From: Vicugna vicugna
Taxonomy: Eukaryota
Reading direction: 5' to 3'
Assembly: GCA_013265495.1 (NCBI GenBank)
Contig: MU057840.1
Location: 62,001 to 120,330, forward strand
Length of the DNA stretch: 58,330 bases
The notes under the pieces are model-generated. The model saw nothing but the letters and a program-made list of their open reading frames with translations. It ran no database searches and was not told the DNA's origin. Positions 19,476 through 58,330 of this stretch are shown here, piece by piece; positions within the stretch are counted from its first letter, which is position 1; each line of letters begins with the position of its first letter. Position numbers and translations under genes: made by a program.

Positions 19476-19607
19476 CAGTACGTACTGTAGCTACTGCAAT
19501 CCATACACACCGTGTGCTGAGCTTTTTCTTGCTTTTCTGACTTCTTACGGTTGATTAAGGGTATTTGTGTATCTTCGTAACTTTTTTTTTGCATGACATT
19601 CACATAC
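19476..19607 (-). CDS. USP3: USP3 exon 3, copy A (ZnF-UBP, degenerate), 132 bp
   Basis: tgtaag|G TAT GTG AAT...TAC TG|gtaagt; encodes YVNVMQKKSYEDTQIPLINRKKSEKQEKAQHTVCMDCSSYSTY. The GHAKKH motif is replaced by VMQKKS. Confidence 0.94.
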
Positions 19608-20254
19608 CTTACAAAAATCAAATGAAAATCTATCTTAATCTAAATACTGCTTTGGAAGGTAAAGTAGTAGGAGATGATAATAAAATTAGATTGTTATCAA
19701 ATCAGAAATGAGAAAGAATTTTTCCTAATAAAAGCATTCATTCCTGTAAGAACATTCAGTCACTTAGTGATTTATTAAGCTGAGTACTTAAAATATGCTC
19801 TTCTTTCGCAATCATGTATGACAGTCGGCTCTTAGTTACACACAAGACTGGGGCCAGGCAAGGAAGGTGTCATCTACGCAAACCAGTTTCAACACCAGTG
19901 ATATCATCGCTTGTCAACTCCTTTGCTAGATCCTTCTGCTACGGCTTTTTTCTTTTTTTAAAGTGTTTCTCAGACGGCTAGCCCCAACCTCAGGCTATTA
20001 TCAAAGACGAGTTTCGTAAACTAAATTACTCAGTCACTGCCCACAGGGTCACGGGCTCTGCTTAATAAAAACATGAGAATCAGATAGTGAATGAATACGT
20101 ACAGGTGGTCCTGGTGGCCCCATCCTCTGTGAGTCCCCACAGAACTCACAGGCAGCAGTGGCCGTCTCGACTGCTTTAGAGGCTGGGGCAAGCGCAAAGA
20201 GCGAGGAAGATGAGAAAACACTTGCACTCACGGTAAAGGAACAGTAACACTTAC

Positions 20255-20386
20255 CAGTACGTACTGTAGCTACTGCAATCCATACACACCGTGTGCTGAG
20301 CTTTTTCTTGCTTTTCTGACTTCTTACGGTTGATTAAGGGTATTTGTGTATCTTCGTAACTTTTTTTTTGCATGACATTCACATAC
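20255..20386 (-). CDS. USP3: USP3 exon 3, copy B (same exon sequence as copy A), 132 bp
   Basis: Same exon sequence and AG/GTAAGT sites as 19476-19607, inside a ~0.79 kb tandem duplication. Confidence 0.92.
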
Positions 20387-21639
20387 CTTACAAAAATCAA
20401 ATGAAAATCTATCTTAATCTAAATACTGCTTTGGAAGGTAAAGTAGTAGGAGATGATAATAAAATTAGATTGTTATCAAATCAGAAATGAGAAAGAATTT
20501 TTCCTAATAAAAGCATTCATTCCTGTAAGAACATTCAGTCACTTAGTGATTTATTAAGCTGAGTACTTAAAATATGCTCTTCTTTCGCAATCATGTATGA
20601 CAGTCGGCTCTTAGTTACACACAAGACTGGGGCCAGGCAAGGAAGGTGTCATCTACGCAAACCAGTTTCAACACCAGTGATATTACCGCTTGTCAACTCC
20701 TTTGCTAGATCCTTCTGCTACGGCTTTTTTCTTTTTTTAAAGTGTTTCTCAGACGGCTAGCCCCAACCTCAGGCTATTATCAAAGACGAGTTTCGTAAAC
20801 TAAATTACTCAGTCACTGCCCACAGGGTCACGGGCTCTGCTTAATAAAAACATGAGAATCAGATAGTGAAACAGGACAACCTTCCATCTCCTTCTCATCA
20901 GTATGGCTCCAAATCTTTTATTTGAATGCCTGCACAATCACTCCACTCATATGGAATAGGTTTGTTTAGAAAAAATCCAAACAAAACACAACTCATGTTA
21001 ACCTTATACAGACTGTTCTTTCTCTACATGGACAAAGATAATCAAAGGTTGACTACAGTCATAAAAATTAACTCTTTCCCATTCAGATTGAATAAATCAT
21101 TTTATCACAAAAAGCAAAATAAAACTGAATTGAGGGTTCACATGCATATGCTGTGCACACAAATTCACCTACATCTTCACCTAAATATGTACAAAGCCGT
21201 AACCGACCACTACTTGAAGACCCTTATAAAACAAAAACTAAAACTCCCCAGTTCCTAGAAAGCAGCTAATTTGTAGAAGGCAAGGCCTAATGGAAAACTC
21301 ACAACAGTCAAAACGAATGTTGATTTAACAGCACCAAAATAACTCTGCTCAGAGAGTTAAGGTGACATTTTTGTCACAAGGCGCCTTAAACCTTAACTGA
21401 GAGCAACACTTACCTTGGGGAAAGCTAGGGAAAGCGAGGAGGACCAACCGCAAGCCCAGCCTCTGGCCCCAGGAAAGCTGGAAGCATGAGAGGCACTGCC
21501 ACCCTCCACTCAACTCTGACTTTGGTCATGGTTTTTTCCGACATTTTGTTTTCTTTGTAATAAACATAACCAACACTTGTGGGTACAAAGGTCTTAAGTT
21601 TACAAAAGTGGACTAAAATGAATTTTTTAAAAATGATTA

Positions 21640-26169: not shown

Positions 26170-26272
26170 GGGAGGTGGGGAGGATTGCTCAGTGGTACAG
26201 TGCATGCCAAGCATACCTGAGGTCCTGGGTTCAATCCTCAGTACCTCCATTTAAAAAAAAAAAAAAAAAAAA
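26170..26272 (+). mobile_element. Camelid Vic-1-like SINE
   Basis: gctcagtggtacagtgcatgccaagcatacctgaggtcctgggttcaatcctcagtacctcc followed by about A20. Confidence 0.88.
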
Positions 26273-39315: not shown

Positions 39316-41767
39316 AAAAAGTAAATTGATGTAACAGTCATGTCAATTCATGAAGTTGCCCAAACCATTTTTTCATCTTAAAAAAAATGCTTAAACTCTA
39401 TTACATGAAATAAAAATTACAATAGCAGTTTATCATCTGGGGCCAGGCACCTACTGCATTCCCTGAACACTACAAGGCTAATTTGCAGAGCTAATGGTAT
39501 GTTTCCTCTGCTAAAGAATGTAATTTTAAAGCTGGTCAAAATTTGTCATCTGTATATTAACAGATCCAGATGCCTACAGAGCCAGAAAAGAGAGGACGTC
39601 TTCTCCGGCTGACTTCCTACAGAGAGGCAAATTCTGACCCATAAGACTGGTCCCCTCACTGGCTAAAGCATTCTATTCTACTTTGAAATGGATTTCTGAG
39701 ATCAATTTTCAACATCAAATGAAAATATAATATAGAAAGAATGTATGTGAAACTACATAGTCTCAAAAACCGTAATGCACTAGACACACTTGTAATAAGT
39801 CATTCTATCACAAACTCAGACCTGTTCAGACCCACTTTGGTGAAAACCACCTAGTGAAGCTAGTCTGCTTTGTCTATTCTGCAGTCTTCGCTAAATGCTG
39901 GAACCGTGCCCGAACTCCAAATGAGAGGAAAGGGTAGTGGGGACAAGGACAAAAACTACTTAAGTCAAAACACACGACTAAATCAGAGTCAAAATGGGCC
40001 ACTTTGGCCTTTAAATGACCAGATACAAATTAACTACAGAAAAATTACCAAGAGTTAATATTGTTTCAAAAAGAACTCTCCCTAGGAAGCTGATGATACG
40101 GAGAGTGAACACAAAAGCCATGAATCACTTATGAAAAATTCTGGCATCTAATATTCCCATCTGTTTAACATAGCAAGATCTGATGCAGTGCCACACTTTT
40201 GCCAACAACCTGAGTAAGCAAATCCATGGTTAAACAGGATTTTCAAAAGAAATGAATCAAGCCACAAATGTAAACACCATACAACTATTATTTCAAAAAC
40301 AACAGCAAAGTATATGCAATGTAAGAAAAGATGCATATATATATTTTAGAGGAAGCACCGCCTTTCATAAATAAGTAAAACAATTAAGAGGGTTAGGGAG
40401 CTCTTATTCTCAAAGACTTCACTTAGAGTGCAGGTCTAGTATCTGCAGTGCACAGTTCTCTTCCCAGTTTTTTGTGGTTATATAATAAAGGTTGCACTAA
40501 AGCACAAAGAGGGGGGCAGGGAATTACCACAGTTGTACTTAACAGCTGTGCTGGGAAGCTATTCTTTTAAAATCAGTGGGTCTTTTTAGGGAGATATGGA
40601 AAGAAAAACAAACTGGGCACATGTTTATACTCTGCCTAAAGGGCTAGAAACCCAACATAACAGAAAATAGGCTCCTGTAAACTCCAACAGCTGTTCTGAT
40701 TATTTAACAAAAACCAAGAGTTGGAAAATTGTTTTTACAACCAATAAGTATAATGTTTAAATGTGATCCACACTTCCCCCAAAATATCTATTAATTACTC
40801 AAATAAAAAATACACAAAAGCCTGAAAAAAAAATTCTTAACTGACGTTCTTAAAAAACTAGACACAAACAAAACACTTGAAATAACTGAAATGAAATTGG
40901 TGCAGTTAAATTAAACTGGAATTAAATTCTCACAGCATGAATTTGAGCTCTGGCAGCTGCTTCATACACCTAAGGTAAATAAAGCCTGAGTCTTTACTTG
41001 TACAGAACAATTTCTCCAATCAACATTTCCATCCACGTTTAACAGTCTCCCCAATCCACATACGCATCCATCTCACAATTAACATTCAAAGTAATTCAGA
41101 TGGAAACTAGAGTTAATCTCAATTATCCTGGGTGACACTAAAATAAAAAAAATCAATCAACAATTTAAGTGTCAGCCCCAGATTACCCAAGTTAAGCTGT
41201 TTTTTAAAAATATTATATTAGAGTATTTCTCCAACATATTATCTATCAATTATCCCAGGGAAACATCTGTGGCAAGAAAAAACCAACAAATTGCTCCCTA
41301 GAAATTTCAGCATGATCTTCACAAACTTTGACCAAAATCTTACCATCCCAACATTGTGCAACAAATGTTCAAAACAAAGGAATGAATAATAATCTATTAT
41401 TTAAAACAAAGAATATCTGAGCATGTTCAGTAAGGACAAAGATTTAAAGAAGACAAAACAACAAGTGTACGATCACAGTCAGTTACATTAAACCTGCAGG
41501 GACATGACAGCTAATCACCAGCCTGCTCATCCTGGTGATGAGACAGTACAAGAACAGTCCATAAAGGTCTTCAAGGCGGGTCAAGGATAAGTAGGCAAGC
41601 AAATTTCACAACTCAGGGGATGCTACTGGTATACAGCGGGCAGACTCCAGGGATGCTGCTAAACATCTCACAATGCACAAAAGAATCCACTCTCTCCATC
41701 CAAAAAAGAATTATCTGGACCAAAATATCAAACATGGTGAGGGTGACAAACCCTGGGCTAACCTTAC

Positions 41768-41914
41768 CTGGACTTCTGACGCTGTTACACAAGTTGAGGG
41801 TGAGGTCATCCAGGATCCTGGAGAGGGACGCAAAATCTGCCAGTTGCATGTGTGGGGATCATCGGGGTCTGCTGCAGTCATCTTTTAACTTAGCTTCACC
41901 AGCATTTTTAATAC
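41768..41914 (-). pseudogene. COL12A1: COL12A1-derived exon (end of VWA domain), 147 bp, with +1/-1 frameshifts and an internal TGA
   Basis: cccaag|GT ATT AAA AAT GCT...AGT CCA G|gtaagg; reads IKNAGEAKL(+1)[11 protein letters not shown](-1)[24 protein letters not shown] versus recalled [48 protein letters not shown]. TGA at 41859-41861 in the shifted frame. Confidence 0.92.
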
Positions 41915-42484
41915 CTTGGGAAAATGGATGCATACAAATCAAAAAACAAGTCTCAGAAAAAAATCAATGGAATAAAGCAAACATTTCACGGGCTACCCCT
42001 ATGTATTCAGTATTAACTAGAACGTAGATATGATGTTCCTCTCAATAATCAGATGACTACATATCTTTAGTTATAAAATAGACACAAAAAATAATATTAA
42101 CCAAAGTCTATTTTGTTTAGATTCTCCTAAATGCTCCTAGCACCAATTCCCCACCAAAAAGTGTCTCTTCAAAGTTTTTTCTGTAAATTAAAAATAACAG
42201 ACATCAAAAATAATCACAGTGCTGTGGAAAGTCAAACAGAAACTTTCCTGAATCCTATCTGTCCTCTTGACCCATTACTCTCTTCCAAGAAGCCAGAGTT
42301 TCAGGTCATTACAAGGAGAAAAGAAGAAAACGAATTAATGTCCTGGCACAGCATTTTGATAAATTATGTAATAGGGAAAATGTGTTTGCTTGTCTGTCCA
42401 TGCTTCAGAAAATGTTATTAACTTCAAAACTATCCTCAGCACACTTCTACGCCCGGGGGCACAGCCAGTCTCTTCAGTGCTTAC

Positions 42485-42634
42485 CAACAGCAAACGGCTC
42501 CACACCTTCATCCTTGAGTTGCTTTGATGGGGTCTCAACGTCATCAGTGATGAGAACATCAATTTTTCGAGCTTGACGCCTCATGCCAGCTTGGGTCTTG
42601 AAGCTCTGTTGGTGAATGAAGTTTAAAGCCATGT
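42485..42634 (-). pseudogene. COL12A1: COL12A1-derived VWA exon, 150 bp, open frame with an in-frame 15-bp deletion
   Basis: cgctag|AC ATG GCT TTA...GCT GTT G|gtaagc; [49 protein letters not shown] versus recalled [54 protein letters not shown]. Confidence 0.93.
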
Positions 42635-42732
42635 CTAGCGGGATTTTTAAAAGAGAAGCCATCACATAGTTATTCAGCCACAAGCTTTGACCACAAGCAA
42701 GAGCTCCAAGCGCACCAGACACTTTGATTCAC

Positions 42733-42816
42733 CTGTGAGGGTCCTGCCTCCTTTGTGAGGTAAGTTTGCCACAGCCTGCAGCAAGCTCTTCTTGTCTCTC
42801 TGAGCATTTAAGTGCC
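42733..42816 (-). pseudogene. COL12A1: 5'-truncated COL12A1-derived VWA exon, 84 bp
   Basis: GG CAC TTA AAT GCT CAG AGA GAC AAG AAG AGC...CTC ACA G|gtgaat = [27 protein letters not shown] versus recalled [27 protein letters not shown]. The LAQYSGDPRTE part is missing. Confidence 0.9.
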
Positions 42817-43206
42817 CTATAATAGTAAGGTGAATTCAAAATATCTAAGGGATATACACAGGAATCATTACAAACAAAACAGTTCAAAATACGTATTTAT
42901 AAAAAGGGTTAAGTCAGAAAGCATATACTTTCATAACCAATGAAAATTATCATAACACAGTGTTACCCAAGTGGAAATATAAAGGGTACACAGTTCAGAA
43001 GATTAGGTTAGCATGAGAACATTAATATGTAGAATCATTTTAGCAGGAAGTAGATAGGTAAAAATCATGTGCTATTTAGGCATCCTATCTAAACATTATA
43101 ATGTAATTCATTACAGAATCAGTTTCAGACATTTACAAAGGAAGCAGATGCATTAATTGCCCTTTAAAACATTGCACACTTTCCCCCCTAAATTATCAGT
43201 TTGTAC

Positions 43207-43469
43207 CTGTCGTGCCTGATACTTGCCTAAGCTTCCCCTCTTCTCTCTTGTAATCTGCGAGAACTGTGATGTTGTATGTGGTCTGGGGCTGAAGCCGCTT
43301 TAACACTGTGGAGGTGACTGTGGGTGGCACTTTGGCCCACCAGCTGTCTCCTGCCCCCATGGGGCTGATAGACAACACTGTAGCTGATGACTTTCCCAGG
43401 TGCTGGTTTCCAGGTGACTCTTGTGTTTTGTTTCTTCAGCCACTTTCAAGGTTTTCAAATCTTCCAACA
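43207..43469 (-). pseudogene. COL12A1: COL12A1-derived fibronectin type III exon, 263 bp, frameshifted
   Basis: tctcag|TG TTG GAA GAT...ACG ACA G|gtacaa; pieces KTLKVAEET / [22 protein letters not shown] / [26 protein letters not shown]...[11 protein letters not shown] lie in shifted frames (net -5 then +1 nt). Confidence 0.93.
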
Positions 43470-44299
43470 CTGAGAGATAAAAGGAAGATGACAATGTTAC
43501 ACCAGGTGAAAGAAAATGTTTATGCCCGCCTCCCTCATTTATGTGAAAAGACACTATCTAGTTTCCTAAGTGTACACACTATTCTGTTACTTAGCGTCGT
43601 GATCTCTCATAAGTTCAGGATGGCGTGTGAGCCTAATCTCAGTGAGATCACAGTAAGTTCTCTTTATCTGGCTGGTAACTAAAAAATGGAAGTAAACATT
43701 GCAAGGATTTCCTACTATTTGCATTCCAGAGACTTTAGTAAAGAAAACACCCATTTCTGGATATAAACTTCAGAGTTTTTATTATATTTCTATTTGTAAA
43801 GAATTCCGATAGCAAACATATTGTGGGGAATACTAAAAATTATGAATACAGGGTCAGAAATATTACTTGAGTCTTTTCAGAAAAAGGTACAATGAATAAG
43901 TGACTAGTCAGAGTGTCTATAGTTCACTCTATCCTTTGTGATTGCCATCAACATGTAAGGCTATCAGCAGAGAGGAACAGGAAACTCTGACACAGAAAAA
44001 TATCTCAAGGGCTCTGGAGATGAACTGGGATACAATGAGTGGCTTTATGAAGCACTATATGTAAAAAATGTTTAATATACAAACATACCATTTATTAAGT
44101 TATCTTTCAATAACTATCAGAAACAGGTGGCCAAATACACAAATAGCCAAACATCCCTTTTCCACACATAATTGGACCTCATAAGCAGGAGCATTTCATT
44201 CAGTTCAGTCATCTCAGCATTCGAAGGTCATAAGCATCTTCTATAGGGAGAGACTAAGCTGAAGAAAACACTGGGAAGAACTTGCCTGGATTCTAAAAG

Positions 44300-45080
44300 A
44301 AATTTTCATGCTCAAACAGGCAAGGATCACTTGAAAAAGCTAAAAACATAATCCTGCAAAAAATTTTAAAAATATATATATACATATATATGACCATTTT
44401 TCAGACACTGGACATCAGGCAGCACAGGACTAGGACCCTGAGTGATGAGAAACAAATGAGAATGAGCCTGACCACTGCCCTGACTCACTGCTTAAAGCGT
44501 GTTCCCAGCCCCAGTACAGGAAGGGGGAACCCAGATAGAGCCTGGTGGTCTCCCTTCATTGAGGAGGTGGTTTTCTGAGTCTCTGGAGTCCAAGGCACCC
44601 AGAACACACCGAGCAAAGTCCTGCAGAGGAGATGGCGCTACAGAGAAAAAGTTTCAAAAATCTGCAACCCAGTACTAATCAGGGCACAGGAATGAAGAAA
44701 CTACCGAAACCAAAGAAAGAACCACCTAAAAGGAGCAGAAGGAACAATTCCTGGAGCTCACGCAGGGCCAGAAACATTCCCTCCCGCCAGAGTACACCAC
44801 CTCACAGTCCCCTGAACATTGTAAGACGCACTAAGGAGGTTACTCCCCCAGGAGGGGAGCAAAATGAGCCCTGAACTAAAGGTTTCTCTGGTCTAGCGCT
44901 AACAGAGTTTAAAAGAAAGCTTCAAAAATATCAAGCTGTCTCCAAANNNNNNNNNNNNNNNNNNNNNNNNNNNNNNNNNNNNNNNNNNNNNNNNNNNNNN
45001 NNNNNNNNNNNNNNNNNNNNNNNNNNNATTGTTTGACATAAAAAATACCAGATATGCAAAGAAAGAAAAAAAATAGCACC
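44300..45080 (+). mobile_element. Old L1M 5'/ORF1-proximal fragment, interrupted by a gap
   Basis: ttttcagacactggacatcaggcagcacaggac...; continues after the MLT1 insertion and probably again at 46529-46845. Confidence 0.5.
44947..45027. other. Assembly gap (81 N)
   Basis: Run of N. Confidence 1.
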
Positions 45081-45084
45081 CATA

Positions 45085-45440
45085 CTGTGGACTGAATGAT
45101 TGTGTCTCCCCAATATTCCTGTTAAAGCCTTAATCGCCAATGTGATAGTATTTGGACCTTTGGGGAAGTAATTAGTATTAAATGAGGTCCTAAACGTAAG
45201 GCCCTAATCTGATGGAACTGGGATCCTTCTAAGAGGATGAGGAGACATTAGAGCTTGTGTGCTCTCTCTCTCTCTGTCTCTCTCTCTCTCTGTCTCTGTC
45301 TCTCTCCCCCAAGCACAGACTGAGGAAAGGCCACGGGAAACCAAATTCTTCCAGAACTTTAACCTGGACTTCTAGCATCCAGAAGTATGAGAAAATAAAT
45401 TTCTTGTTTAAGCCACCCAGTCAACATTATTTTATTAGGA
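45085..45440 (+). mobile_element. MLT1A-like solo LTR with internal (CT)n
   Basis: tgtggactgaatgattgtgtctcccc...aatgtgatagtatttgga...ggacttctagcatccagaagtatgagaaaataaatttcttgtttaagccacccagtc. Confidence 0.8.
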
Positions 45441-45499
45441 CCGTTAGAGGTAAGGTACCCATAATAAGCAGAAAAATGAATCAACAGAAACAGAACTAA

Positions 45500-45757
45500 A
45501 AACAAATGTATGGTTACCGGTAGTGGGAAGGAATAAATTGGGACTTCAAGATTTGCAGATACTACTAGACATAAAAGAGATAAAAAGCAAGTTTATACTG
45601 TGCAGCAGAGGGAACTATATTCAATGACTTGTAGTGGCCTATAATGAAAGAGAACATGAATATGAATCTATGTGGGTATACAGATGAATGACCTATTCCG
45701 CTGCACACCAGACATTAGTGCAACATTGTAAACTGACTATACTTCAAGTTTCTAAAA
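45500..45757 (+). mobile_element. Camelid-type L1 3' UTR end
   Basis: ggaaggaataaattgggacttcaagatttgcagatac...gggaactatattcaatgacttgtagtggcc...caacattgtaaactgactatacttcaa. Confidence 0.8.
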
Positions 45758-46528
45758 AGGAACACTCGATGGGGCTTTTTGTGTAGACCTACACCGTTGG
45801 AAATGCCTCATAGGGTAACTATGTGGTTTCCTTTCCTCACAGAACTACGTCTTAGATCTGTGGGAAAGAACTACAAGGCAGAGCTGCTAAATAAACTATG
45901 AGAAACCTAACAAGCTCTTTCATCTTAGGTGCTGGCATATCCCAACAATCAGTACTGCTCCAGGGTGTGATAAGCTTAGGAGTAAACATGATTTGAACTT
46001 AATGCATGTTCAGAGACTGTCTAAAATTCAGAACCAGGCAGATCTATCTTCCCTGACCCCAAATACGTTAATAGTCCTAAAGTAAACTGGTTGAGGAAAC
46101 TGGATCCCAAAGATTACAGGTGAGGAGTTTTTGAAGTGTGTCCATGTTCCACTGGAGATGAAAGAAGCCCAATTTTTAAAAGAATTATGAACTGACTGAC
46201 ATGACAACTGCTGACTGAGCAAAACTTCTTTTTTAAAGGGCTTTCCTGAAGATTACAACTCAAACATTGGAGGAGCAAAGGTGATGGGGTGATGGGCAGT
46301 GGAAGGAATCAGAACATGTGAAATTCTTAAAAAATGTATTGACTTAAGTAATTCTGCCTATGTTACACAATACTTTACACTTAAAGAAAAGAAACTGAAC
46401 TACAAATAGCATGTATGGCTTTACACTAAAAAATTATTCAAAAGGGACACTAAACAGCTATTATAACCATATTCCATATGTTACTGATAGAAACCAAAGA
46501 AAGAACCACCTAAAAGGAGCAGAAGGAA

Positions 46529-46845
46529 AAATATTAACCATGCTAAGTAAACACATAGAACATTTAAGAAAAATTCAAAGCAAACTTCTGGAGGTGAAAA
46601 ATACAGTATCTAAGATGAAAAATGCACAGGATGGTACTAGCAGCAGATTAGAAACTGCAGGAAAAAATACTGATAAATTTGATGGCATAATAGAAACTAC
46701 CCAAAAGGAAGTGCAAAGAAAGAAAACTGAGTAACAGCACAACAGTGAGCTGTGTGATAACCCCAAGCAGACTAACACACGTAGAACTCGAGTACCTGGA
46801 GAAAGTAGGGGTAATAAATAAAATGTTTGAAGAAATAATGGCCTC
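46529..46845 (+). mobile_element. Old L1M ORF1 coiled-coil remnant
   Basis: ORF 46411..46734 contains KLLEVKNTVSKMKNAQDGTSSRLETAGK, typical of the L1 ORF1p coiled coil. Confidence 0.7.
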
Positions 46846-46849
46846 AGTG

Positions 46850-48215
46850 CCATACTGCCCAAGGCAACATACAGATGCAATACAGTCCCCATCAAATTAC
46901 CGACGACACTCTTCACAGAGCTGGAATAAGCGTTAAACTTTGTATGGAAACACAAAAGACCCCAAATAGTCAAAACAATCTTGAAAAAGAAGAACAGAAT
47001 TGGGGGAATCATGCTCCCTGACTTCAGACTATACTACAAAGCTACAGCAATCAACAGTATGGCACTGGCACAAAAACAGACACATAGATCAATGAAACAG
47101 GATAGAAAGTCCAGAAATAAACCCGCCTATTTAGTCAATTAATCTATGACAAAGCAGGCAAGAATATACAATGGAGAAAAGACAGGCTTTTCTATAAGTG
47201 GTGCTGGGAAAACTGGACAGCTACCTGTGAAAGACTGAAATTAGAACATTCTCTTCCACCATGTACAAAAATAAACTCAAAATGGATAAAAGACCTCAAA
47301 GTAACACCAGATACTGTAAAACTCCTAGAGCAAAAAATAGGCACAACACTCGCAGACATACATTACAGAAAGACATTTTCTGAACCAGCTCCTGGAGTAT
47401 TGGAAATAAAAGCAAAAACAAACAGATGGGATCTAATTAAGCTTCAAGGCTTTTGCACAACTAAGGACACCATCAACAAAACGAAAAGACAACCTACAAA
47501 ATGGGAGAAACTCTTTGCAAATGTGACTGAGACTAATTTCCAAACTATACAAATAGCTCATACATCTTAATATCAAAGAAACAAGCAACCCAATCCAAAA
47601 ATGGGCAGAAGACCTAAACAAGCAATTCTCCAATGAAGACATACAAATAGCCAACAGACACATGAAAAAATGCTCAGCATCGCTAATTGTCACAGAAATG
47701 CAGATCAAAACTACAACATGATATCACTTTACACCAGCCAGAATAGCCACCATTGAGAAGTCTACAGATGACAGATGCTGCAGAGGGTGTGGAGAAAAGG
47801 GAACCCTTCCACACTGTTGGTGGAGTCTAGATTGGTGCAGCCACTATGGAGGACAGTACAGAGGTTCCTTAAAAAAATGAAAATAGACCTACCATGGGAT
47901 CCAGCAATCCCACTGCTGGACATGTATCTGGAAAAAATAAAATTCAAAAAGACACATGCACCCCAGTGCTCACAGCAGCAATATTTACGATAGCCAAGAT
48001 ACGGAAACACCCCAAATGTCCACTGACAGATGACTGGATAAAGAAGATCTGGTACGTATATACAATGGAACACTACTCAGCCACACAAAAAGAAAATAAT
48101 GCCATCTGCAGCCAGACGGACGGACCTGAAGACTGTCATTCTAAGTGAAGTGGGCCGGAAAGGGAAAGAAAAATGCCATACAACATCATTTATATGAGGA
48201 ATCTAAAAAATATCA
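46850..48215 (+). mobile_element. L1 ORF2 3' portion (defective)
   Basis: ctgcccaaggcaacatacagatgcaatacagtccccatcaaattacc...ctccctgacttcagactatactacaaagctaca...; CCHC-region peptide [45 protein letters not shown]. Many stops and shifts. Confidence 0.95.
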
Positions 48216-48524
48216 ATAATAATAAGGCCACCAATGTACTAATTATCATTTTGACTTCTTGAATATGTGTAAGCACATCTGACTGTCCTTTATGACTGGA
48301 TTACCATATTCTGTTGATTCTTATTTTGTAGTTGGCTTTATTCCTTTAATAACTATGTAAGTTTAAAAACCTAATCTCTTCTCAGAATCAGTAAGTAGTC
48401 CATATATGTAAACTAAAAAAAAGTACAGTATACTGTATCTATGTATCTACATACAATATAATCTGTATGTGCAGTCGAACTGTAGTAACTCTACCTAATA
48501 AAACTGGAAAAGGAGGGAAGAAAA

Positions 48525-49346
48525 AACAAACCAGACATACGGATCAATGAAACAGAATAGAGAGCCCAGACATAAACCCACAAACATTCAGTCAATTCAT
48601 CTTCGACAAAGAAGGCAAGAACATACAGTGGAGTAAAGACAGTCTCTTCAGCAAAGCATGCAGGGAAAACTGGACAGCTGCATGTAAATCAATGAAGTCA
48701 GAATACTCCCTCATACCCTGCACAGAAACGAATTCAAAATGGCTTCAAGACTTAAACATAAGACAAGACACTATACACCTCTTCGGCGAAAACTTAATCT
48801 TACATACATCTCAGCAGTTCTGTCCTAGGGCAGTCTACTCCAGCAATAGAAATAAAAGCACAAATAAACAAACAAATGGGACCAAGCTGAATTTATCAGC
48901 TTTTGCACAGCAAAGAAAACCATAAGCAAAACAGAAGGACAACCTACGAGATGGGAGAAAACATTTGCAAAAGATGAGACTGACAAGGGGTTAATTTCCA
49001 GAATACAGAAACAGCTCATACAACTGAATAACCAAAAAACAACTCAATCCAAAAATGGACAGAAAATCTAAACCAGCATTTCTCCAATGAAGACATACAA
49101 ATGGCCACCAGGCACATGAAAAAAGGCTCAATGTTGCTAATTATCAAAGAAATACAAGTCAAAACTACAATGAGGTATCATGTCACACCAGTCAGAAAGG
49201 CCTTCATTCCAAAGTCCACAAAGGATAAATGCTGGAGAGGCTGCGGAGAAAAGGAAACCCTCCTACACTGTTGGTGGAAATGGAGCTTTGTGCAGCCACT
49301 GTGGAAAACAGGAGGGAGATTCCTCAAAAGACTAAAAAGACACTTG
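48525..49346 (+). mobile_element. L1 ORF2 fragment, truncated at the CpG-block junction (composite copy 1)
   Basis: [37 protein letters not shown] in ORF 49101..49583, then an abrupt switch to GC-rich non-L1 sequence. Confidence 0.93.
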
Positions 49347-51150
49347 TCAAAAGCTTTTGATCTTGGGGGCAGGCTAACAAGCTCCCAAAGGCCCAGGCCG
49401 CGCCCGGTATTACGCCCCAGCTCGCACAGGGTCTGGGGCGGCCTCCGCTCCCAGGACAGGTCCACCTACGCAGGAAGGCCACGGCCTGAGGGCCAGTCCA
49501 GCGCCCTCCCATCTCCCAGGGCTGCTCCGACTTTCCCAAACCCCTCTGTCAGTGGCGGCCAAGAAAGACGTGGGGTTCAGTGACTGCTGAGCAACTGGGG
49601 CGGCGGGCCCGGGACCTGCCTTAGGGCCCTAACGGGACGCGCGGCCTGGGCCTCACCCACGCACCCCTCCCTGTGCGCCTCCCCAGCTGCACAGCCCAGG
49701 CTTCACCTGCCGACTCCTCGACCTGCTCGCCCTGACCAGCGCCCCCTTACCTGCTTGGCGACAGCAGCAGAAGCGACAGCAAGAGGCCGGTGGCCCAGGC
49801 CCCAGGTGCACTCCTCCTTCGGGAGCCGGTTCAGGAGCACCGGGCTCCCGCCCGCGTCCGCACGCTCTGGGCGCGCTCCCGCGTCCGCGCACATGCGCGT
49901 TGGTGCGCTCCCCTCCCCCTCCCGCCCTCCGCGTGGACACTAGTCTTGGGCTCCTGCAGTAGGGTCCCTGCGACTGAGGCCTGGCGGTGGGGCGGTGGGG
50001 CAGTGGGGCAATGGGGCGGGCCCACCTCGCGGACAGGGCCAGCCAGGCCCCCAACCCCAACGCCCCCACCCTGCCACTCACAGGGTCCCGGCACCCAAGT
50101 AGAATCACCACAGGTTCAGGCCAGGCCACACACCCCAAGGCCCACCCCCCAAGGCCCACACCCCCCGCTCCCCACCCCCGGCCAGGCCTGGTCCCCAATT
50201 GATTGCACAAAGACAAGGCTCCTTCTCCTCACACCGAAGTCCCCGCCCCCAGACTGTGCCCCACTAGGTCCTAAGCTACAGCCCCCACAAATCAAGCTGG
50301 CCTCTCATGCCTCACCCCAGGTCCCCCACCTTACAAAGGTAGTCCCCTCACCCTTCACCCCAGGATTACCCCCATCCCTCAGCCGGGTCCCCCCGCTCCA
50401 AGCGGCCCTCAACTGGGTCACTTCCACTCCTAGTGACCCCCTCACCCCTCAGCCTGTCCCCCTTCACCGCGGGATCCCCAACAACTGTAGTGCACCCCTA
50501 ACCCAGCTGACCCCCTCACCCCTCACCTTTCACCTAACGGGGGCGGGGCCATCCGGTCTCTGATCCCCAGGGCGTCAACCGCCAGACAGGGATCCCAGGC
50601 AGCTTGCGGGCACACAGCCTCGTGTCCCAGGCTCCCGGGCCTGGGCGGGTGGGGCTGGAGGCCGTTCCAAATCCTGCCTGGGCGCCCTGCCCCACTCCCG
50701 TCCCCTCTAACCCCCACGTCCAGTCTGAGCCCATGGGTCAGGGTGGTCCCGGGCTGCACACCACTCACCAGTGGGCTCTGGGTGGTTGATGGTGCTGCCG
50801 GGTGGGAGGGTGCAGCCCGACCCTGGGATGGACAGCAGGAAGCAGCAGCGACGGCAGCGGGCGAAGGAGGCTGCCCTGGGAGAGCCAGTCGACCTGCTAC
50901 CATCTCCCCCGCTGCCTGGCATGGAGCAGCCTCTGCTACCCCAGCCTCCTGGAAAGAATTCCTCCCTGTCAGCCTGCTCCTGGGAGGCAGGGGCGGTGCG
51001 GTCAGGGAGGCGAAGAGGCAGCGGCGGTGGCCATAGGGGCAGATCCGACGGCTGGACTGGGGCTGCCCCACCCTACAGCAGGGATTCGCTTCCATTTCCT
51101 GCTGTCCCTACTCACACTTCAAGAAGCCCGCCTCCCAGGAGCAGATTGAC
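49347..51150. promoter_or_regulatory. CpG-rich block, copy 1 (CpG-island-like; candidate minus-strand first exon ending at donor 49751/49750)
   Basis: Dense CpG especially at 49600-50030, GC box GGGGCGGG (50013-50020), NRF1-like GCACATGCGC near 49889-49898, and minus-strand CAG|GTAAG donor. Promoter activity is inference. Confidence 0.6.
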
Positions 51151-51830
51151 CCCTACCCTGCATCCCAGGAACCTGGGGCAGTAGAGGGCATCACCAGGCC
51201 AGGCTGCAGGAGAGGTGGGAGTAAGTCCAGCAAGAGTATCTGGGGCAAGGCCTTCTTTCCTCACAACTGCTGGGCCACCACCAATGACTCGACCGCTGAC
51301 TGCACCCCGCAGGCCTCCCAGGAGCAAGCTAACCACCAAATGTGTGTCCCTCTAACGGGGGGAAGAAGATGCCCCAGTCCAGCCAGGGCTAAGGGGACAT
51401 GGGAACAAATCCAGGGGCTCACACCTGGCAGTCCCCCTTCCGCCTCAGCAGCCACCACTCCCTGACCAAACTGCAAAAGGATCTCGAGATCGCTGACCTG
51501 AGGATGTGCCTCCATTCAACCTGGGGAAGCAGACACCGCCCTCAGGGCAGGGCACAAGGAGTTGGGAGCAAATTCACAGGCTCACACAGGGTACCTCCCT
51601 TATCCTGCTTCCACAGCTGCCACAACTGCCTTCACCCCAGCTCCCTCACTGGACCAGCCAGGGCTCCAGGGAGCAGTCAGACCTAAAGATGAACCTGAGG
51701 CAGCAGAGGCCGCCCCCAGGTCAAACTGCAGGTGAGATGTGAGCAAATGACTGGCTGGCAAGGGGTAGCCCCCCTCCTCCCGCCACCGCTACTGCGGCTG
51801 CCACCCTGACCACACTGAGCCCTTGGTCTT
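51120..51830. repeat. Array of about four diverged GC-rich monomers (~140-190 bp)
   Basis: Recurring aacctggggcag(c/t)agaggc...ggaga(t)gggagcaaat...cagctgccaccac...gctgacct motifs near 51170, 51360, 51518 and 51692. Confidence 0.75.
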
Positions 51831-51834
51831 ACCA

Positions 51835-53995
51835 AAGTCAAATTGAGGGAAAATATCTTAACATAATAAAAACTATTTATACATCCCTACAGCCACCAAA
51901 ATAACCTACAATGAAAAGCTGAAAGCCTGTCTGCTAACATCTGCAACAACACAAGGCTGCCCACTCTCACCACTTCTATGCATTCAATATACTTTGTAAG
52001 TCCTAGTAGAGCAATTAGACAAGAAAAAGATATAAAAGACATCTAAGTTGGAAGACAAGAGGTAAAACTGTCACTATACGTGCATGACATAATACTATAT
52101 ATGGAAAATCCTAGAGGAGCCACACAAAAACGACTAGAGCTAATAAAAGAATGCAGCAACGTAGCAGAATACAACATCAACATTCAGAAATCTGTGGCTT
52201 TTTGATAAATGAAAGTAATAATCCCTTTTAAAATTGCATCCAAAAAATTAAGACTCAGGAATAAATCTGACCTAGGAGGTGAAAGGCTTATATGTGGAGA
52301 CCTACAAAACACTGACTAAGGAAATTAAAAGATGACTTAAAGAAATGCAAAGATAGCCCAGGTTCTTGCATTGGAAGAATTAATATTATGAAAATGGCCA
52401 TACTACCCAGACCGAACTACAGATTCTTATCAAATCACCCAGGACATTTTTCACAAAACCAGAACATATCATCTTAAAATTTATACAGAATCACTAAAGA
52501 CCCAGAATGATCAAAGCATTACTAAAGAAAAAGAATGAAGCAGAAGGAATAACCTCCCAGACTTGAGACACTACTACAGAGCTACGATCAAACCAGCATG
52601 ATATTGGTACAAAAACAGACCTACAGATCAATGGAACAGAATAGAGAGCCCAGAAATAAACCCACAAACATTCGGTCAATTCATCTTGGACAAAGGAGGC
52701 AAGAACATGCCATGGAGTGAAGACTTCAGCTTCAGCGAATGGTGTAGGCAAAACTGGACAGCTGCATGCATATCAATGAAGTTAGAATACTCCCGCACAT
52801 CATACACAAAAATAAATGCAAAATGGTTTAAAGACTAAAGTAGAAGACAACACAATACAAGTCTCTTAGAAGAAAATAAAAGCAAAACATTATTTCACAT
52901 ACTTCTCAGCAATATTTTCCTACAGCACTCTACCCAAGCAATAGAAGTAAAAGTAAAAATAAACTAACGGGACCTAACTGAATTTACAAGCTTCTCCACA
53001 GCAAATGAAACCACAAGCAAAATTAAATGACAACCTACAGGATGGGAGAAAATATTTGACAAAGGCTGATTTTCCCGAATATAGAAACAGCTCACATGAT
53101 ATAATAACAAAACACAAAGAACCCAATTCAAAAATGGGCAGAAGATCTAAACATGCATTGCTCCAATGAAGACATACAAATGGTCAGTAGGCACATGGAA
53201 AAATGCTCAATATCTCTAATTATCAGAGAAATGCAAATCAAACCTCTAATGAGGTATCACCTCAAGCCAGCCAGAATGGCCATCATAAATGATAAACGCT
53301 AGAGAGAGTGTGGAGAAAAAGGAAGCCTCCAACACTGTTGCTAGGAAATGTAGTTTGGTGAAGCCATGATGGAAAACAGTATGCAAATTCCTCTAAAAAC
53401 TAAAAACAGACTTACCACATGAACCAGCAATGCCACTTCTGGGTATATATCTGGAGGGAACTCCAGTGTGAAAACATACCTCCACCCTGATGTTCACAGC
53501 ACCACACTATACAACAGCCAAGACATGGAACCAACCTAAATATAGCAACAGATGACTGGATAAAGAAATTGGGGTATTTTTATACGGTGGAATACTACGC
53601 TACCATGAAAAAGAATAAAATGCTATTTGCAGCAATGTGGATGAACCTAGAGGACATCATTCTAAATGAAGCAAGCCAAAAAGAGAAAAATACCATATGA
53701 TATCACTCATATGTGGAAACTAAACAAAAAAAAAGGAGAAAAAGGAAAAAGAAAGAAAAAGGACGCTATGAACTCATCTACAATACAGAAACAGTCTTGT
53801 ACACATAGTAAACAATCTCATGGTTACCAGGCAAAGGGGGTGGGAAGGGATACATTTAGGAATTTGAGATTTACATATGGTAGACGCTATATATATAATA
53901 GAGAGAGAGAGAGAGAGAGAGAAACTAAAGAATTTTTTTCTTCTGTGTAGCACAGAGACCTACCTAAGTTCAATATCTAGTAATATTCTATAACG
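51835..53995 (+). mobile_element. L1 ORF2 3' half plus 3' UTR (defective), fused to monomer array
   Basis: Starts mid-RT (aaatatcttaacataataaaaactattt...aatgaaaagctgaaagcc) and runs through to the 3' UTR with (GA)n at 53900-53921. Confidence 0.93.
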
Positions 53996-54109
53996 GAAAC
54001 ACCACTACAGCCACCGCCTTAGGGAGCAAGACAAGAAAGGGAAGGAGAGCCAGTTACCCTAGGCTAGAACCCAGTCCTTGCTCGTGCCAAAACAGTGCCC
54101 GCTGAGGGC

Positions 54110-54665
54110 ACTGCACCCTCCTCTAAGGAGCAGGCTGACCTGAGGACGTGCCTCCAGGGAAGCTGGGGCAGCAGAGGCCGCCCCCAGTCCAGGCCATGGG
54201 GGAGATGGGAGCAAATCCACAGGCTGGCACAGGGCAGCCGCTCTTCTCCCACCCTCGCAGCTGCCACCACTGCAGTCTTCCCCTCTCCCTGATCAAATCG
54301 TACAGGCCTCCAGGAAACAGGCTGACCTAAACAGGTGAGTCCTGCAACCCTGTGGCAGCAGAGGCTGCCACAAGACCAGGCCCCTGGGGAGATGGGGATA
54401 AATGCAAGAGCTTGCACAGGGCAGCCTCGCTCCCGCCCTCGCCGCCCCTGCCCCCTGACCACACTATGCCAGCCTCCTCGGAGCAGAATGACCTATAGAC
54501 TTGGATCCAATGATCCTGGGGCAGCTAGGCCAACACAAGGCCAGGCCACAGGGGGAGACAGGAGCAAATGACTGGCTGGCAAGGGGTAGCACCTCTCCTC
54601 CCGCCACCACTACTGCTGCTGCCATCCTCCCAGCCCCCTGAGCACACTGAGCCCCGGGTCTTACT
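54110..54665. repeat. Second array of about three GC-rich monomers, homologous to 51120-51830
   Basis: gctgacctgaggacgtgcctcc...ggcagcagaggccgcccccag...ggagatgggagcaaatcc repeated. The final monomer gagcaaatgactggctggcaaggggtagc is nearly identical to 51741-51770. Confidence 0.8.
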
Positions 54666-54669
54666 AAAG

Positions 54670-56290
54670 TGGATATGTACGGAGAGGAAACATATCTCAA
54701 CATAATAAAAGCTATTTATGACAAACCTACAGCCAGCATCATACTCTACACTGAAAAGCTGAAAGCCTGTCTACTAACATCTGGAAGAAGACAAGGATGC
54801 CCACTCTTACCACTCCTATTCAGTATAGTGTTGGAAATCCTAGTAGAGCAATAAACAAGAAAAAGAAATAAAACAGATCCAAATCGGAATACACGAGGTA
54901 AATTTCTCACTATTTGGGTGACATAATACTATATATGGAAAACTCTAAAAGCTCCACACATAAAACAACTAGAGCTAATTAAAAGAATTCAGCAAGGTAG
55001 CAGGATACAACATCAACATACAGAAATCAGTGGCATTTAAATACATGAAAGTAATAATCCTTTTTAATATTGAATCCAAAAAAAAAGACTCGAATAAATC
55101 TGACCCAGGAAGTGAAAGACTTACATGCAGAGACCTACAAAACACTGAGCAAAGAAATTAAAGAGGACTTAAATGAAACATAGCCCATGTTCAAGCATTG
55201 TAAAAATTAATATTGTGAAAATGGCCACACTGCCCAGAGCAATCTACAGATATAATGCGATCCCTATCATAATACCCAGGACATTTTTCACAGAACTAGA
55301 ACAAATCATCCTACAATTTATACAGAATCACTAAAGACCCAGAATTTCCAAAGCATTACTGAAGAAAAAGAACGAAGCAGGAGGAATAACCCTCCCAGAC
55401 TTCACACACTACTACAGAGCCACAATCAAACCACCATGGCATTGGTACAAAAGCAGACCTACACATCAGTGGAACAGGATAGAGAGCCCAGACATAAACC
55501 CACAAACGTTCGGTCAATTCATCTTGGACAAAGGAGGCAAGAACATACAATGCAGTCAAGACCATCTCTTCAGCAAATGGTGTAGGCAAAACTGGACAGC
55601 CGCATGCAAATCAATGAAGTCAGAATGCTCCCTCACACCACACACAAAAATAAACGCAAACTGGCTTAAAGACTTAACATAAAACAAGACACTATAAACC
55701 TCTCAGAAGAAAACACAGGCAAAACACGATATGACGTACATCTCAGCAATGTTTTCCTAAAGCAGTCTACACAAGCAATAGAAATAAAAGCAAAAATAAA
55801 CAGACAAACGGGATGAAACTGAACTCATAAGCTTTTGCACAGCAAGGGAAACCACAAGCAGAACAAAATGACAACCTACAGGATGGCAGGAAATATTTGC
55901 AAAAGATGAGACTGACAAAGGTTTAATTTCCAGAATATAAAAGCAGCTCATACAACTTAACAACAAGAAACAAACAAGCAAGCCATCCAATCCAAAACTG
56001 GGCAGAATATCTAAATCACCATTTATCCCACGAAGACATACAAATGGGCCGCAGGCACATGAAAAAAGGCTCAAAGTCGCTCATTAACAGAGAAGTGCAA
56101 ATCAAAACTCCAATGCGGCATCACCTGACACGGATCAGAATGCCCAACATTCAAAAGTCCACAAAGGAGAAAATGCTGGAGAGGCTGTAGAGAAAAGGCA
56201 ACCCCCCTGCACTGCCAGTGGGAATGTAGTTTGGTGCAGCCGTTGTGGAAAACAGTAGGCAGATTCCTCAAAAGACTAAAACTAGACTTG
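54670..56290 (+). mobile_element. L1 ORF2 fragment (composite copy 2)
   Basis: [27 protein letters not shown]...[21 protein letters not shown] (RT motif QGCPLSPLLF) through [20 protein letters not shown], then a CpG block. Confidence 0.94.
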
Positions 56291-58043
56291 CCTGAAGCTT
56301 TTGATCTCAGGGGCAGGGCGACCAGCTCCCAAAGGCCCAGGCCTCACCCGTTATTCTGCCCCAGGTCGCCTGTGCCCCGGAGGGTCCAGGGCAGCCAGCA
56401 CTCCCCAGGCAGGTCCACCTGTGCAGGAAGGCCATGGCCTGAGGGCCGGTCGGAGGTGCTCCGGGCACATCTGGCGCCCTCCCATCTCCTGGAGCTGCTC
56501 CTGCTCCCGCTTTCCCAAACCCGCCTATGAGCGGCGGCGGCGGCAACAAGGGGGTTCAGTGACTACTGATGTGCGGGGCGGGGGGGGGGGTGTACCGCGA
56601 ACCAGGGCGGCGGACTGGAACCGCCTCCGCGTCCAAACGGGCTGTGTGGCCCAGACCTCACCTCCGCACCCCGCCCTGTGCACCTCCCCAACGCAGCCCA
56701 GGCCTCACCGGCGGGCTCCCCGACCTGCGCGCCCCCACCAGCGCCCTGTTACCTGCCAAGCCACAGCAGCGGAGGCGACGGCACGCGGCGGCTCAGACCC
56801 CAGGCCGCGTTCCTCCTCAGGGAGCTGGTCCAGGAGCGCCCGGCTCCCGCCCAGCTTCCCCGCGCTCCGGGCGCGCTCCCGCGTCCGCACACTCCCCTCC
56901 TCCTACCGCCCGCAGCGGGGAACCTCGGCCTGGTTCTGATGCAGTGCGGGGACTTGGCGAACGGGCCCGAGAGGGGCCAGGCGGGTCTGGGTGGTGGGGC
57001 AGCCCACCCAGGGGCTGGGCCTGGGCTGGGCAGGGACCCCATCCGCAATGCCTCCACCCTGTCACTAACAGTCCTGGCAGACAGCCAAACCCCCAATACG
57101 GGGCTCCTTACCTCACATCAAGGTCCCAGCCCCCACACTCTGCCCAGCTTGGTCCTACCCTATGGTCTCCACACCCCAAGCTGACCCCTCAAGCCTCACC
57201 CAGGGTCTCCCCATCATCCTAACACGGTCCCTTCACCCCTCTCCCCTGGATTATCCCCCACCCCTAGCTGGGTCCCCTCAACTCCGAGTGCCCCTCACCC
57301 TTCAGTGGGGTCATTTCCACTCCAAGTGGCCCCTCACTCCTCAGCCTGTACCCCTTCATCGCGGGATCCCCTGTCTCTCTGAGTGCACCCCTATCTGGAG
57401 CTGACCCCCTCTCCCCTCACCCTGCTGGGAGCGAGGGGGTCTGGGCTCTGGTCACCACGGCGACAGCCGCCAGAGGAGGATATAGCATATTGTGTGTCTG
57501 CACAGCACAGTGTCCAAGGCTCCTGGGCACAGTAGGCCGGGCTGGAGGCTGTTCCAATTCCCGCCCGGGTGCCCTGCTGCCCTGCTGCCCATGCCTTGTG
57601 CCATGTCTCAGTCAGCTGGTCATGGTGTCCTGGGCTGCTTGCCACTGGCCTGTGGGCATTGGGTGAGTCATGGTGCAGTTGGGGATCCGGACCACCACCA
57701 CCTCAGAGCAGTGGCACTGGGCCCAGGGTCCTGCAGGGGTAGGGAGGGAGTAGGGTGCGGCAGAGCCCTAGGATGGAGAGCAGGTGGTGGGCTGTGTGGA
57801 TGATCTGGGCTAGGCCCAGGTGGGTGTGGTGACCCTGTTCGTTTTGTCCGGGTAGAGGGAACAGGGACAGGAACTTTGAAAGTGTCCACGTTAGGAGCCC
57901 AAAGGTGGAAGGCAAAGGGGGCAGCTGCACTGGCCAGGCCACCTTGGAACCTGCCAGGATGCTGGTCCCTCACATCTGGGAAGACTGACAATTGACAGGC
58001 AAGTGAGACATCCTCCCCCAACCCCCCCCCCCCAGTACAGTTT
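56291..58043. promoter_or_regulatory. CpG-rich block, copy 2 (paralog of 49347-51150)
   Basis: Shares aagcttttgatct...gctcccaaaggcccaggcc, ggcgcgctcccgcgtccgc, gcgggatcccc and gctgaccccctc with copy 1; minus-strand CAG|GTAAC donor at 56753/56752. Confidence 0.6.
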
Positions 58044-58139
58044 NNNNNNNNNNNNNNNNNNNNNNNNNNNNNNNNNNNNNNNNNNNNNNNNNNNNNNNNN
58101 NNNNNNNNNNNNNNNNNNNNNNNNNNNNNNNNNNNNNNN
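58044..58139. other. Assembly gap (96 N)
   Basis: Run of N. Confidence 1.
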
Positions 58140-58211
58140 GGCAGGGCAGCCCCAGGCCTGGGGCAGAGGAGGACCTGCATAGAAACATCCTCTTACCTCA
58201 CTAAAAGGCAC

Positions 58212-58330
58212 TGTAGTAAAAAAGAATAAATTTGACTCCGTTTTAGATCTGTTCCTTTTCCTTTAACCCTGTGCCTTGTTTTCTGGGCTTAGTCTTGCTA
58301 GCTCTGCACCTTTTGTAAAACAATATTGCC
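58212..58330 (+). mobile_element. Start of a probable ERV LTR, running off the window
   Basis: Abrupt composition change at TGTAGTAAAAAAGAATAAATTTGACTCCGTTTTAGATCTG, resembling recalled cetartiodactyl ERV1 LTR starts. Confidence 0.5.

What the first reader, a model, noticed from the sequence alone, without database searches (positions are those of the whole stretch)
48525..58043. Repeated composite unit (L1 ORF2 fragment / CpG block / GC monomers) with shared junctions
Seen: the L1-to-CpG junction (cctcaaaagactaaaa...cttg...aagcttttgatct...gctcccaaaggcccaggcc) recurs at ~49346 and ~56290, about 6.9 kb apart. The monomer-to-L1 junction (cacactgagccc...ggtcttac-aaagt...aacataataaaa-ctattt) recurs at ~51835 and ~54670, about 2.8 kb apart. 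The two L1 pieces also share a shortened segment (cagaaatc-gtggc-ttt...atgaaagtaataatcc). Independent L1 insertions would not share breakpoints, so the composite was amplified as a unit and has since diverged. Inference: a camelid macrosatellite/duplication core or a non-autonomous L1-derived composite element. I do not recognise it.
Basis: partly seen in the sequence, partly recalled or inferred. Interest (0 to 1): 0.7.

Follow-up and report, generated by a model that had tools for sequence, protein, structure and literature searches.

The report
Camelid duplicated promoter-exon module
The repeated patchwork is real and comes from old DNA duplications; its GC-rich part is a promoter-like exon that recurs on several chromosomes of camels and alpaca, where gene models splice it onto different gene pieces, much as primate 'core duplicons' do.

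Summary
Both shared junctions and the shared 27-bp L1 deletion are real. The pieces are not one repeated unit. The order is L1b-CpG1-inverted monomers-4 monomers-L1c-3 monomers-L1d-CpG2, with copies 77-86% alike and no poly-A or target-site duplication. This points to old DNA-level duplication inside a camelid duplication mosaic, beside a decayed COL12A1 fragment that the dromedary also has. The new result concerns the CpG block. On the minus strand it holds an exon ending at a CAG|GTAA donor. A profile of the two copies found 12 proteins; 10 carry this exon, and all 9 named ones are camelid gene models on 9 contigs of different length. Nine models from 7 loci leave the window sequence exactly at this donor and continue into different sequences, among them adenylate cyclase, trypsin-like and COL12A1 pieces. 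It works like a primate core duplicon but shows no stable reading frame. Copy number, RNA support and whether L1 and monomers travel with it are untested. Ten literature searches found no description.

The parts
46849..48210 (+). L1a: separate, more distant 5'-truncated L1 (ORF2 584-1037 of P0008); used as outgroup, not part of the composite
   Evidence: 72-75% identical to the other three pieces
48525..49346 (+). L1b: ORF2 fragment (about aa 660-935), ends at junction J1
49347..50845 (-). CpG block copy 1 (core GC 0.71, CpG o/e 0.63): promoter-like region, exon and start of an intron, read on the minus strand; 9 GC boxes and one NRF1-like motif at 49898 (motif names recalled)
49751..49894 (-). 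Exon of copy 1, ending at donor CAG|GTAAG (intron begins 49750); second donor at intron base 45
50500..50825 (-). Distal part of the CpG block; also present in camelid models P0060 and P0063 (P0059 and both of these also match the distal part of copy 2)
   Evidence: z 4.0-10.8 against 30 shuffles
50825..51099 (-). One near-full and one partial GC monomer, inverted relative to the arrays
   Evidence: 98 bits, training member; 16.3 bits against a shuffled maximum of 10.2 in 200
51152..51830 (+). Monomer array A: 4 monomers of about 155-185 bp, 52-62% alike
51831..53998 (+). L1c: 5'-truncated L1 (from about aa 390) with the 27-bp deletion; 3' UTR stops about 100 bp before the L1 end, no poly-A
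   Evidence: compared with the L1 end at 45470-45760
53999..54660 (+). Monomer array B: lead-in plus 3 monomers; last monomer 82-84% identical to the last of array A
54661..56293 (+). L1d: ORF2 aa 385-937; carries J2 and the deletion (shared with L1c) and J1 and a 4-bp insertion (shared with L1b)
56294..57800 (-). CpG block copy 2 (core GC 0.72, CpG o/e 0.63); 81% (core) and 77% (distal) identical to copy 1
56753..56851 (-). Exon of copy 2, ending at donor CAG|GTAAC; ATG region deleted and one frameshift relative to copy 1
41763..43469 (-). Context: decayed COL12A1 exons (fn3, VWA), same strand as the CpG exon; an AG acceptor lies about 6.3 kb downstream of donor 1

Best explanation
The region is an old DNA-level duplication mosaic. 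SHOWN: a 5'-truncated L1 next to a degenerate ~170-bp GC monomer array was copied (J2 and the 27-bp deletion are shared), and an L1-CpG join was copied (J1 is shared). Copies are 0.16-0.28 K2P apart. SHOWN: the CpG block is a camelid-restricted duplicon of at least 1.4 kb, found on at least 4 alpaca, 3 wild-camel and 1 dromedary contigs of chromosome scale. SHOWN at gene-model level: its minus-strand exon is joined at one fixed donor to different downstream sequences. INFERRED: it is a copied housekeeping-type promoter with a non-coding 5' exon. Wherever it lands it supplies a transcription start and a splice donor to neighbouring duplicated gene fragments, making chimeric, mostly non-coding RNAs. 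INFERRED: the L1 pieces gave the homology for the local rearrangement, and L1d may be a recombinant of a c-type and a b-type unit. INFERRED: the copies predate the camel/alpaca split (more than 11 My, PMC13751797 abstract) and are roughly 35-60 My old at a recalled neutral rate.
For: Profile A3 against 1.84 billion representatives gave 12 hits at E<=0.001; 10 carry the exon. 9 of 9 named carriers are camelid, on 9 contigs of different length; the tenth is an unnamed Logan ORF. Of 11 aligned proteins (9 carriers plus 2 isoforms), 9 from 7 loci match intron read-through at only 0-2 of up to 20 residues after the donor. Isoforms P0067 and P0071 of one locus diverge exactly at the donor. P0060 lacks the Val of the GT codon, follows the intron for 15 residues and leaves at the second donor, intron base 45 in both window copies. 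Partners: Guanylate_cyc E 1.6e-22 and Trypsin E 4.6e-08, and a COL12A1 exon 85% identical to the camel parent. The distal block is shared by 3 models. The dromedary has the same decayed COL12A1 fragment at 89% against 75% for the parent gene. No TSD or poly-A.
Against: All evidence from other loci comes from predicted proteins; I saw no DNA or RNA of those loci. An ab initio predictor could pick the same strong donor each time. Pfam named a partner for 2 of the 10 exon carriers and BLAST named a third; the other 7 are unidentified apart from a recalled KLHL2 likeness in P0060. Monomers at other loci are not shown: P0062 scores 22.6 bits with 1 of 100 shuffles reaching it, but 3 of 15 proteins reach that level. 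No model shows the L1 junction. The tree is unresolved: the four-point bootstrap favours (c,d) in 856 of 1000 and (b,d) in 141, against the J1 and 4-bp insertion that b and d share. The recombinant test is only borderline (p 0.043, 0.059 and 0.36). Finding look-ups by sequence gave 0 look-alikes in 3 of 3 calls (16, 38, 39; 90% identity needed). The source gene was not identified.
Confidence: 0.6

Rival explanations
1. Passenger: the CpG block is dispersed only because it rode along in ordinary segmental duplications. It is dead or nearly so, and the gene models are artefacts of gene prediction on GC-rich DNA.
For: No stable reading frame (copy 2 lacks the ATG; P0065 uses another frame). The third-position excess is weak and post hoc (13/47 vs 12/93, p 0.038 uncorrected). 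The window is already a mosaic with COL12A1 and UCH fragments. One carrier (EPY77445.1) is labelled only 'hypothetical protein'.
Against: CpG o/e stays 0.63 in both copies against 0.29 background despite about 20% divergence. Two loci have numbered isoforms, which usually rest on RNA alignments (own knowledge). P0060 shifts to the exact second donor.
Confidence: 0.22
2. The CpG block plus monomers is the 5' end of an old camelid L1 lineage or of an internally deleted L1-derived element. The minus-strand donor then belongs to an antisense promoter, as in human L1 (recalled), and the copies spread by retrotransposition.
For: The plus-strand order CpG block, monomers, ORF2 3' half, 3' UTR (49347-53998) resembles a deleted L1. 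J1 lies about 12-15 bases after an A-run in L1.
Against: No poly-A; no TSD of 9 bp or more in 5 of 5 tests. No L1 remainder after either CpG block within the assembled sequence. Inverted monomers lie inside the supposed UTR, and copy 2 is not followed by monomers before the gap. Only 10 protein clusters carry the exon. The COL12A1 partner is a diverged copy, not the parent gene.
Confidence: 0.1
3. A degenerate outlier of a camelid macrosatellite whose homogeneous arrays lie elsewhere.
For: Alpaca has 14 satellite monomers of 1.8-8.5 kb and discontinuous, pseudogene-rich satellite blocks with GC-rich parts (PMC13751797). P0065 holds two exon copies in tandem.
Against: The order is aperiodic, with spacings of 6,947 and 2,831 bp that match none of the 14 listed sizes. 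The 2 primers tested, of 26, gave 0 matches at 3 mismatches. Exon copies are 46-94% alike at protein level, so they are not homogenised.
Confidence: 0.08

Closest known systems
Primate core duplicons, e.g. LCR16a/NPIP (PMC7419210, passages read; review PMC6920530, passages read)
   Same: A lineage-restricted, GC-rich segment recurs in interspersed duplication blocks beside different duplicated genes. It forms fusion transcripts with flanking duplications that seldom keep an ORF. Promoters borrowed from unrelated genes are described for NBPF1 and LRRC37A.
   Different: Those cores are about 20 kb, under 25-40 My old, Alu-rich, and encode protein families often under positive selection. This one is about 1.5 kb, non-primate, L1-associated, 20% diverged, and shows no stable reading frame. 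Its role as a seed of duplication is untested.
Pseudogene-rich discontinuous satDNA blocks of alpaca chromosomes 11, 17 and 36 (PMC13751797; abstract, Results, first part of Discussion, section 6 and xlsx supplement read)
   Same: Fragmented multi-copy gene pieces among GC-rich repeats in a camelid genome, ascribed to segmental duplication and decay.
   Different: Those blocks are reported absent from camel assemblies, and the genes named are NEK10, ATF5, FMN2, ABHD17A, ACTB and uS3m. This module is present in both camels and alpaca. The parts I read describe no shared promoter exon.
SVA/LAVA-type non-autonomous composite retroelements and the L1 antisense promoter (recalled, no call)
   Same: Composite of a GC-rich block, tandem monomers and L1 sequence; an antisense splice donor.
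   Different: No poly-A or TSD, intron-like sequence retained, aperiodic local copies.

Membership tests
Core duplicon (primate definition) | Same segment recurs at many interspersed loci next to different duplicated genes | tested here: met
   9 camelid models on 9 contigs of different length; three partners identified
Core duplicon (primate definition) | Lineage-restricted expansion | tested here: met
   9 of 9 named carriers are camelid; the 2 non-carrier hits have no match to the window
Core duplicon (primate definition) | Transcribed, with fusion transcripts into flanking duplications | tested here: inconclusive
   Gene models only; no reads were laid
Core duplicon (primate definition) | Encodes a protein family, often under positive selection | tested here: not met
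   Frameshift and lost ATG in copy 2, another frame in P0065, no Pfam family for the exon
Core duplicon (primate definition) | Over-represented among the lineage's duplication blocks (seed of expansion) | not testable with these tools
   No genome held
Macrosatellite / satDNA | Head-to-tail units of one length, homogenised | tested here: not met
Macrosatellite / satDNA | Identity with a catalogued VpaSat monomer | tested here: inconclusive
   Sizes differ; 2 of 26 primers tested, no match; consensuses cut at 400 nt and compared only by eye
Non-autonomous L1-dependent composite retroelement | 3' poly-A tail | tested here: not met
   L1c stops about 100 bp short of the L1 end
Non-autonomous L1-dependent composite retroelement | Target-site duplication | tested here: not met
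   Longest repeat 8 bp in 5 tests; old TSDs may have decayed
Non-autonomous L1-dependent composite retroelement | Dispersed copies with common ends and unrelated flanks | not testable with these tools
   No DNA of other loci was available
L1 5' UTR with monomers | Found directly 5' of L1 ORF1 in many copies; listed in Dfam/Repbase | not testable with these tools
   No repeat library or genome; locally the monomers abut ORF2 at about aa 385
gBGC-rewritten L1 forming a CpG island | GC block aligns to the continuing L1 under A/T-to-G/C substitution | tested here: not met
   47 of 48 comparisons z<2; the one z 3.5 was a control pair

The most novel reading that the evidence does not exclude
A still-active, non-coding promoter/first-exon module has acted for tens of millions of years as the seed of camelid segmental-duplication mosaics. 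It gives a transcription start to each captured gene fragment (ADCY-, COL12A1-, PRSS-like). It would be a core duplicon outside primates that works through its promoter and donor alone, with no protein under selection.
Probability: 0.3. Interest if true: 0.75.

Novelty: new variant of a known kind. Interest (0 to 1): 0.55.

Why it matters
Core duplicons are described mainly from primates, and it is open whether they spread because of the protein they encode or because of their transcription and chromatin. A 1.5-kb camelid module with a fixed splice donor and no stable reading frame would allow that to be tested in an independent lineage, using existing alpaca and camel assemblies and RNA-seq. 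It would also account for a group of oddly named camelid gene models that share one N-terminal exon ('PRDM15-like', 'RANBP9-like', 'DUSP8-like'). If it is only a passenger, the finding is an ordinary old duplication mosaic.

Tried and rejected
No whole genome was held. No read-level result was obtained, so copy number, joints and splicing in runs stay open. Three runs on record as RNA hold 0.11-0.17 and three guessed RNA runs 0.08-0.09 of the words; unlaid small shares are no evidence. Metagenome pattern scans for a J1-side and a monomer motif gave 0 and 0; camelid DNA may be absent there. A word-indexed protein search with a plus-strand CpG ORF gave 0 of 2,682 candidates. Pfam on 105 ORFs of 41000-58330 found 5 with a family: fn3 twice, VWA once and two sub-threshold hits, none in the GC blocks. 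Rfam on 44000-58330 found only SNORA18. The gBGC-rewritten-L1 idea was rejected. The idea that the CpG core is made of monomers was rejected (best 3.1 bits). A coding first exon was not supported. Monomers in other gene models: inconclusive. A z 5.3 match of P0059 to L1b was spurious on inspection. L1d as recombinant: borderline. PDB gave nothing for the VWA piece or P0060. The ESM Atlas gave leads under 0.9 only, so the KLHL2 likeness of the P0060 tail stays recalled. Literature: 10 searches found no description of this module. Passages only, nothing bearing: PMC6598621, PMC7830431, PMC6675863, PMC13558733, bioRxiv 10.1101/2025.08.28.672513. Not seen: the VicPac4 paper, the PPTX supplement and full consensuses of PMC13751797, Dfam and Repbase; any of these could already list the element.
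Full report
Observation. The window is camelid DNA: its named protein relatives are camelid, and a camelid-type tRNA SINE at 26170-26270 is recalled. No genome was held. Self-comparison gives three large repeats: 48528-50093 with 55450-57079 (74%), 50210-50802 with 57095-57683 (70%) and 51293-53416 with 54099-56292 (75%). Junction J1 (L1 to CpG block, 49346 and 56293) is shared: identity stays 0.68 to its right, against 0.39-0.41 in 3 of 3 control pairs. Junction J2 (monomer to L1, 51831 and about 54662) is shared too. Both L1 pieces begin near residue 385-390 of reference ORF2 P0008 and lack the same 9 or so residues.

Anatomy. The order is L1b (aa 660-935), CpG1, two inverted monomers, four monomers, L1c (to the 3' UTR), three monomers, L1d (aa 385-937), CpG2, then an assembly gap. 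J1 recurs after 6,947 bp and J2 after 2,831 bp, so this is a nested rearrangement and not an array of one unit. Monomers are about 155-187 bp and 51-74% alike, except the two next to J2 (82%). A profile finds the 8 training copies and one partial inverted copy, and nothing else above shuffled scores. L1b, c and d are 80-83% alike (K2P 0.20-0.23), L1a 72-75%. L1c ends about 100 bp before the L1 end, with no poly-A, and 5 tests found no direct repeat longer than 8 bp at any boundary. The CpG blocks are not L1 rewritten by GC-biased conversion: 47 of 48 comparisons gave z<2 and the exception was a control.

Context. Minus-strand fn3 and VWA exons at 41763-43469 are a decayed COL12A1 piece. A dromedary protein has the same deletion and the same shifted tail at 89% identity, while the camel parent gene is at 75%. 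A UCH fragment lies at 1504-1743. This agrees with earlier notes of a USP3/COL12A1 mosaic (e1-8043326, e1-8043316) and shows that the COL12A1 piece predates the camel/alpaca split.

The CpG block. Both cores keep GC 0.71-0.72 and CpG o/e 0.63 against 0.29 background. On the minus strand each has GC boxes and an exon-like stretch ending at CAG|GTAA. A profile of the two translated copies, searched against 1.84 billion representatives, returned 12 proteins at E<=0.001. Ten match the window at this exon. P0064 and P0068 have no match to the window and were dropped as repeat noise. Nine of the ten are named, and all nine are camelid models: alpaca on contigs of 96.8, 86.2, 79.2 and 32.8 Mb; wild camel on 37.8, 29.3 and 27.7 Mb plus a 1.7-Mb scaffold that may duplicate one of these loci; dromedary on 39.8 Mb. 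The tenth is an unnamed Logan ORF. Exon identities among them are 46-94%, apart from isoform pairs.

The donor. I aligned 11 proteins: nine carriers and two isoforms; P0065 uses another frame and was treated apart. Nine of them, from 7 loci, leave the window sequence exactly at the donor (0-2 matches in up to 20 residues of intron read-through). P0069 reads on into the intron (6 of 20) and P0060 does so for 15 residues. Both window copies have a second donor at intron base 45, exactly where P0060 leaves. Isoforms P0067 and P0071 split at the donor. P0065 holds two exon copies in tandem. What follows the donor differs by locus: an adenylate-cyclase piece and a trypsin-like piece, a different COL12A1 exon 85% identical to the parent, a KLHL2-like piece (recalled; searches did not confirm it), and unidentified sequence in the rest. 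Three models also carry the distal part of the block, so at least 1.4 kb travels together.

Mechanism. Shown: local duplication of L1-monomer and L1-CpG joins; dispersal of the CpG block over several chromosomes in three species; a fixed donor in gene models. Inferred: the block is a copied promoter with a non-coding 5' exon, moved by DNA-level duplication (intron sequence is kept, retrotransposition marks are absent), and it lends a start and a donor to whatever fragment lies downstream. Here that would be the COL12A1 piece about 6.3 kb away on the same strand. A coding role is unsupported: copy 2 has lost the ATG and has a frameshift, and the third-position excess (13/47 vs 12/93, p 0.038) was picked after the fact. 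L1d may be a recombinant, since shared derived sites are c-like on the left and b-like on the right (12:3 then 3:8). The tests are borderline (p 0.043, 0.059, 0.36), and the distance tree favours (c,d) in 856 of 1000 bootstraps.

Against this reading. I saw no DNA or RNA from the other loci, and gene predictors may favour one strong donor. Monomers and L1 junctions were not shown elsewhere. Three sequence look-ups in earlier findings were empty. The source gene is unknown.

Comparison. It works like a primate core duplicon: PMC7419210 (passages) describes cores as transcribed seeds that form fusion transcripts with flanking duplications, and PMC6920530 (passages) notes borrowed promoters. It is not filed as a member, because the protein-family criterion was not met and over-representation could not be tested. 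PMC13751797 (abstract, Results, part of Discussion, section 6, xlsx supplement with consensuses cut at 400 nt) lists 14 alpaca satellite monomers, none of 6.9 or 2.8 kb, and pseudogene-rich blocks of the same general kind; 2 of its 26 primers were tested and did not match. Ten searches found no description of this module. Dfam, Repbase and the VicPac4 paper were not available.

Verdict. The local composite is real and, taken alone, an ordinary old duplication. The part worth following is the dispersed promoter/first-exon module: a new variant of a known kind, interest 0.55.

Noticed in passing
window 45754-45883 (+): Full-length SNORA18 copy (87.3 bits, gathering score 70) starting right at the A-rich 3' end of an L1 fragment; probably a retroposed or chimeric copy.
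   Followed up: no
window 17428-18289 and 19293-20870: Two near-identical tandem pairs (431 bp at 99.5%; about 790 bp at 96.9%): recent tandem duplications or assembly overlap artefacts.
   Followed up: no
window 44706-44748 and 46490-46532: A 43-bp direct repeat (97.7%) brackets a 1.7-kb stretch that holds an N gap, the L1 end and the SNORA18 copy.
   Followed up: no
window 48528-49345 and 55450-56292: The two L1 pieces next to CpG blocks show more A/T-to-G/C than G/C-to-A/T change (rates 0.082 vs 0.052 and 0.091 vs 0.034), unlike L1c (0.064 vs 0.097); small counts, possibly biased gene conversion near the CpG block.
   Followed up: partly
window 1504-1743 (-): UCH (ubiquitin hydrolase) exon fragment, E 6.4e-06, in line with the earlier USP3 note.
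   Followed up: partly
window 41763-43469 (-): Decayed COL12A1 exons with an internal deletion between fn3 and VWA exons, shared with dromedary KAB1252343.1; the window copy has a further frameshift in the fn3 exon.
   Followed up: yes
window 58180-58330: After the last gap the sequence turns AT-rich and looks like the start of an LTR (recalled impression, not tested).
   Followed up: no
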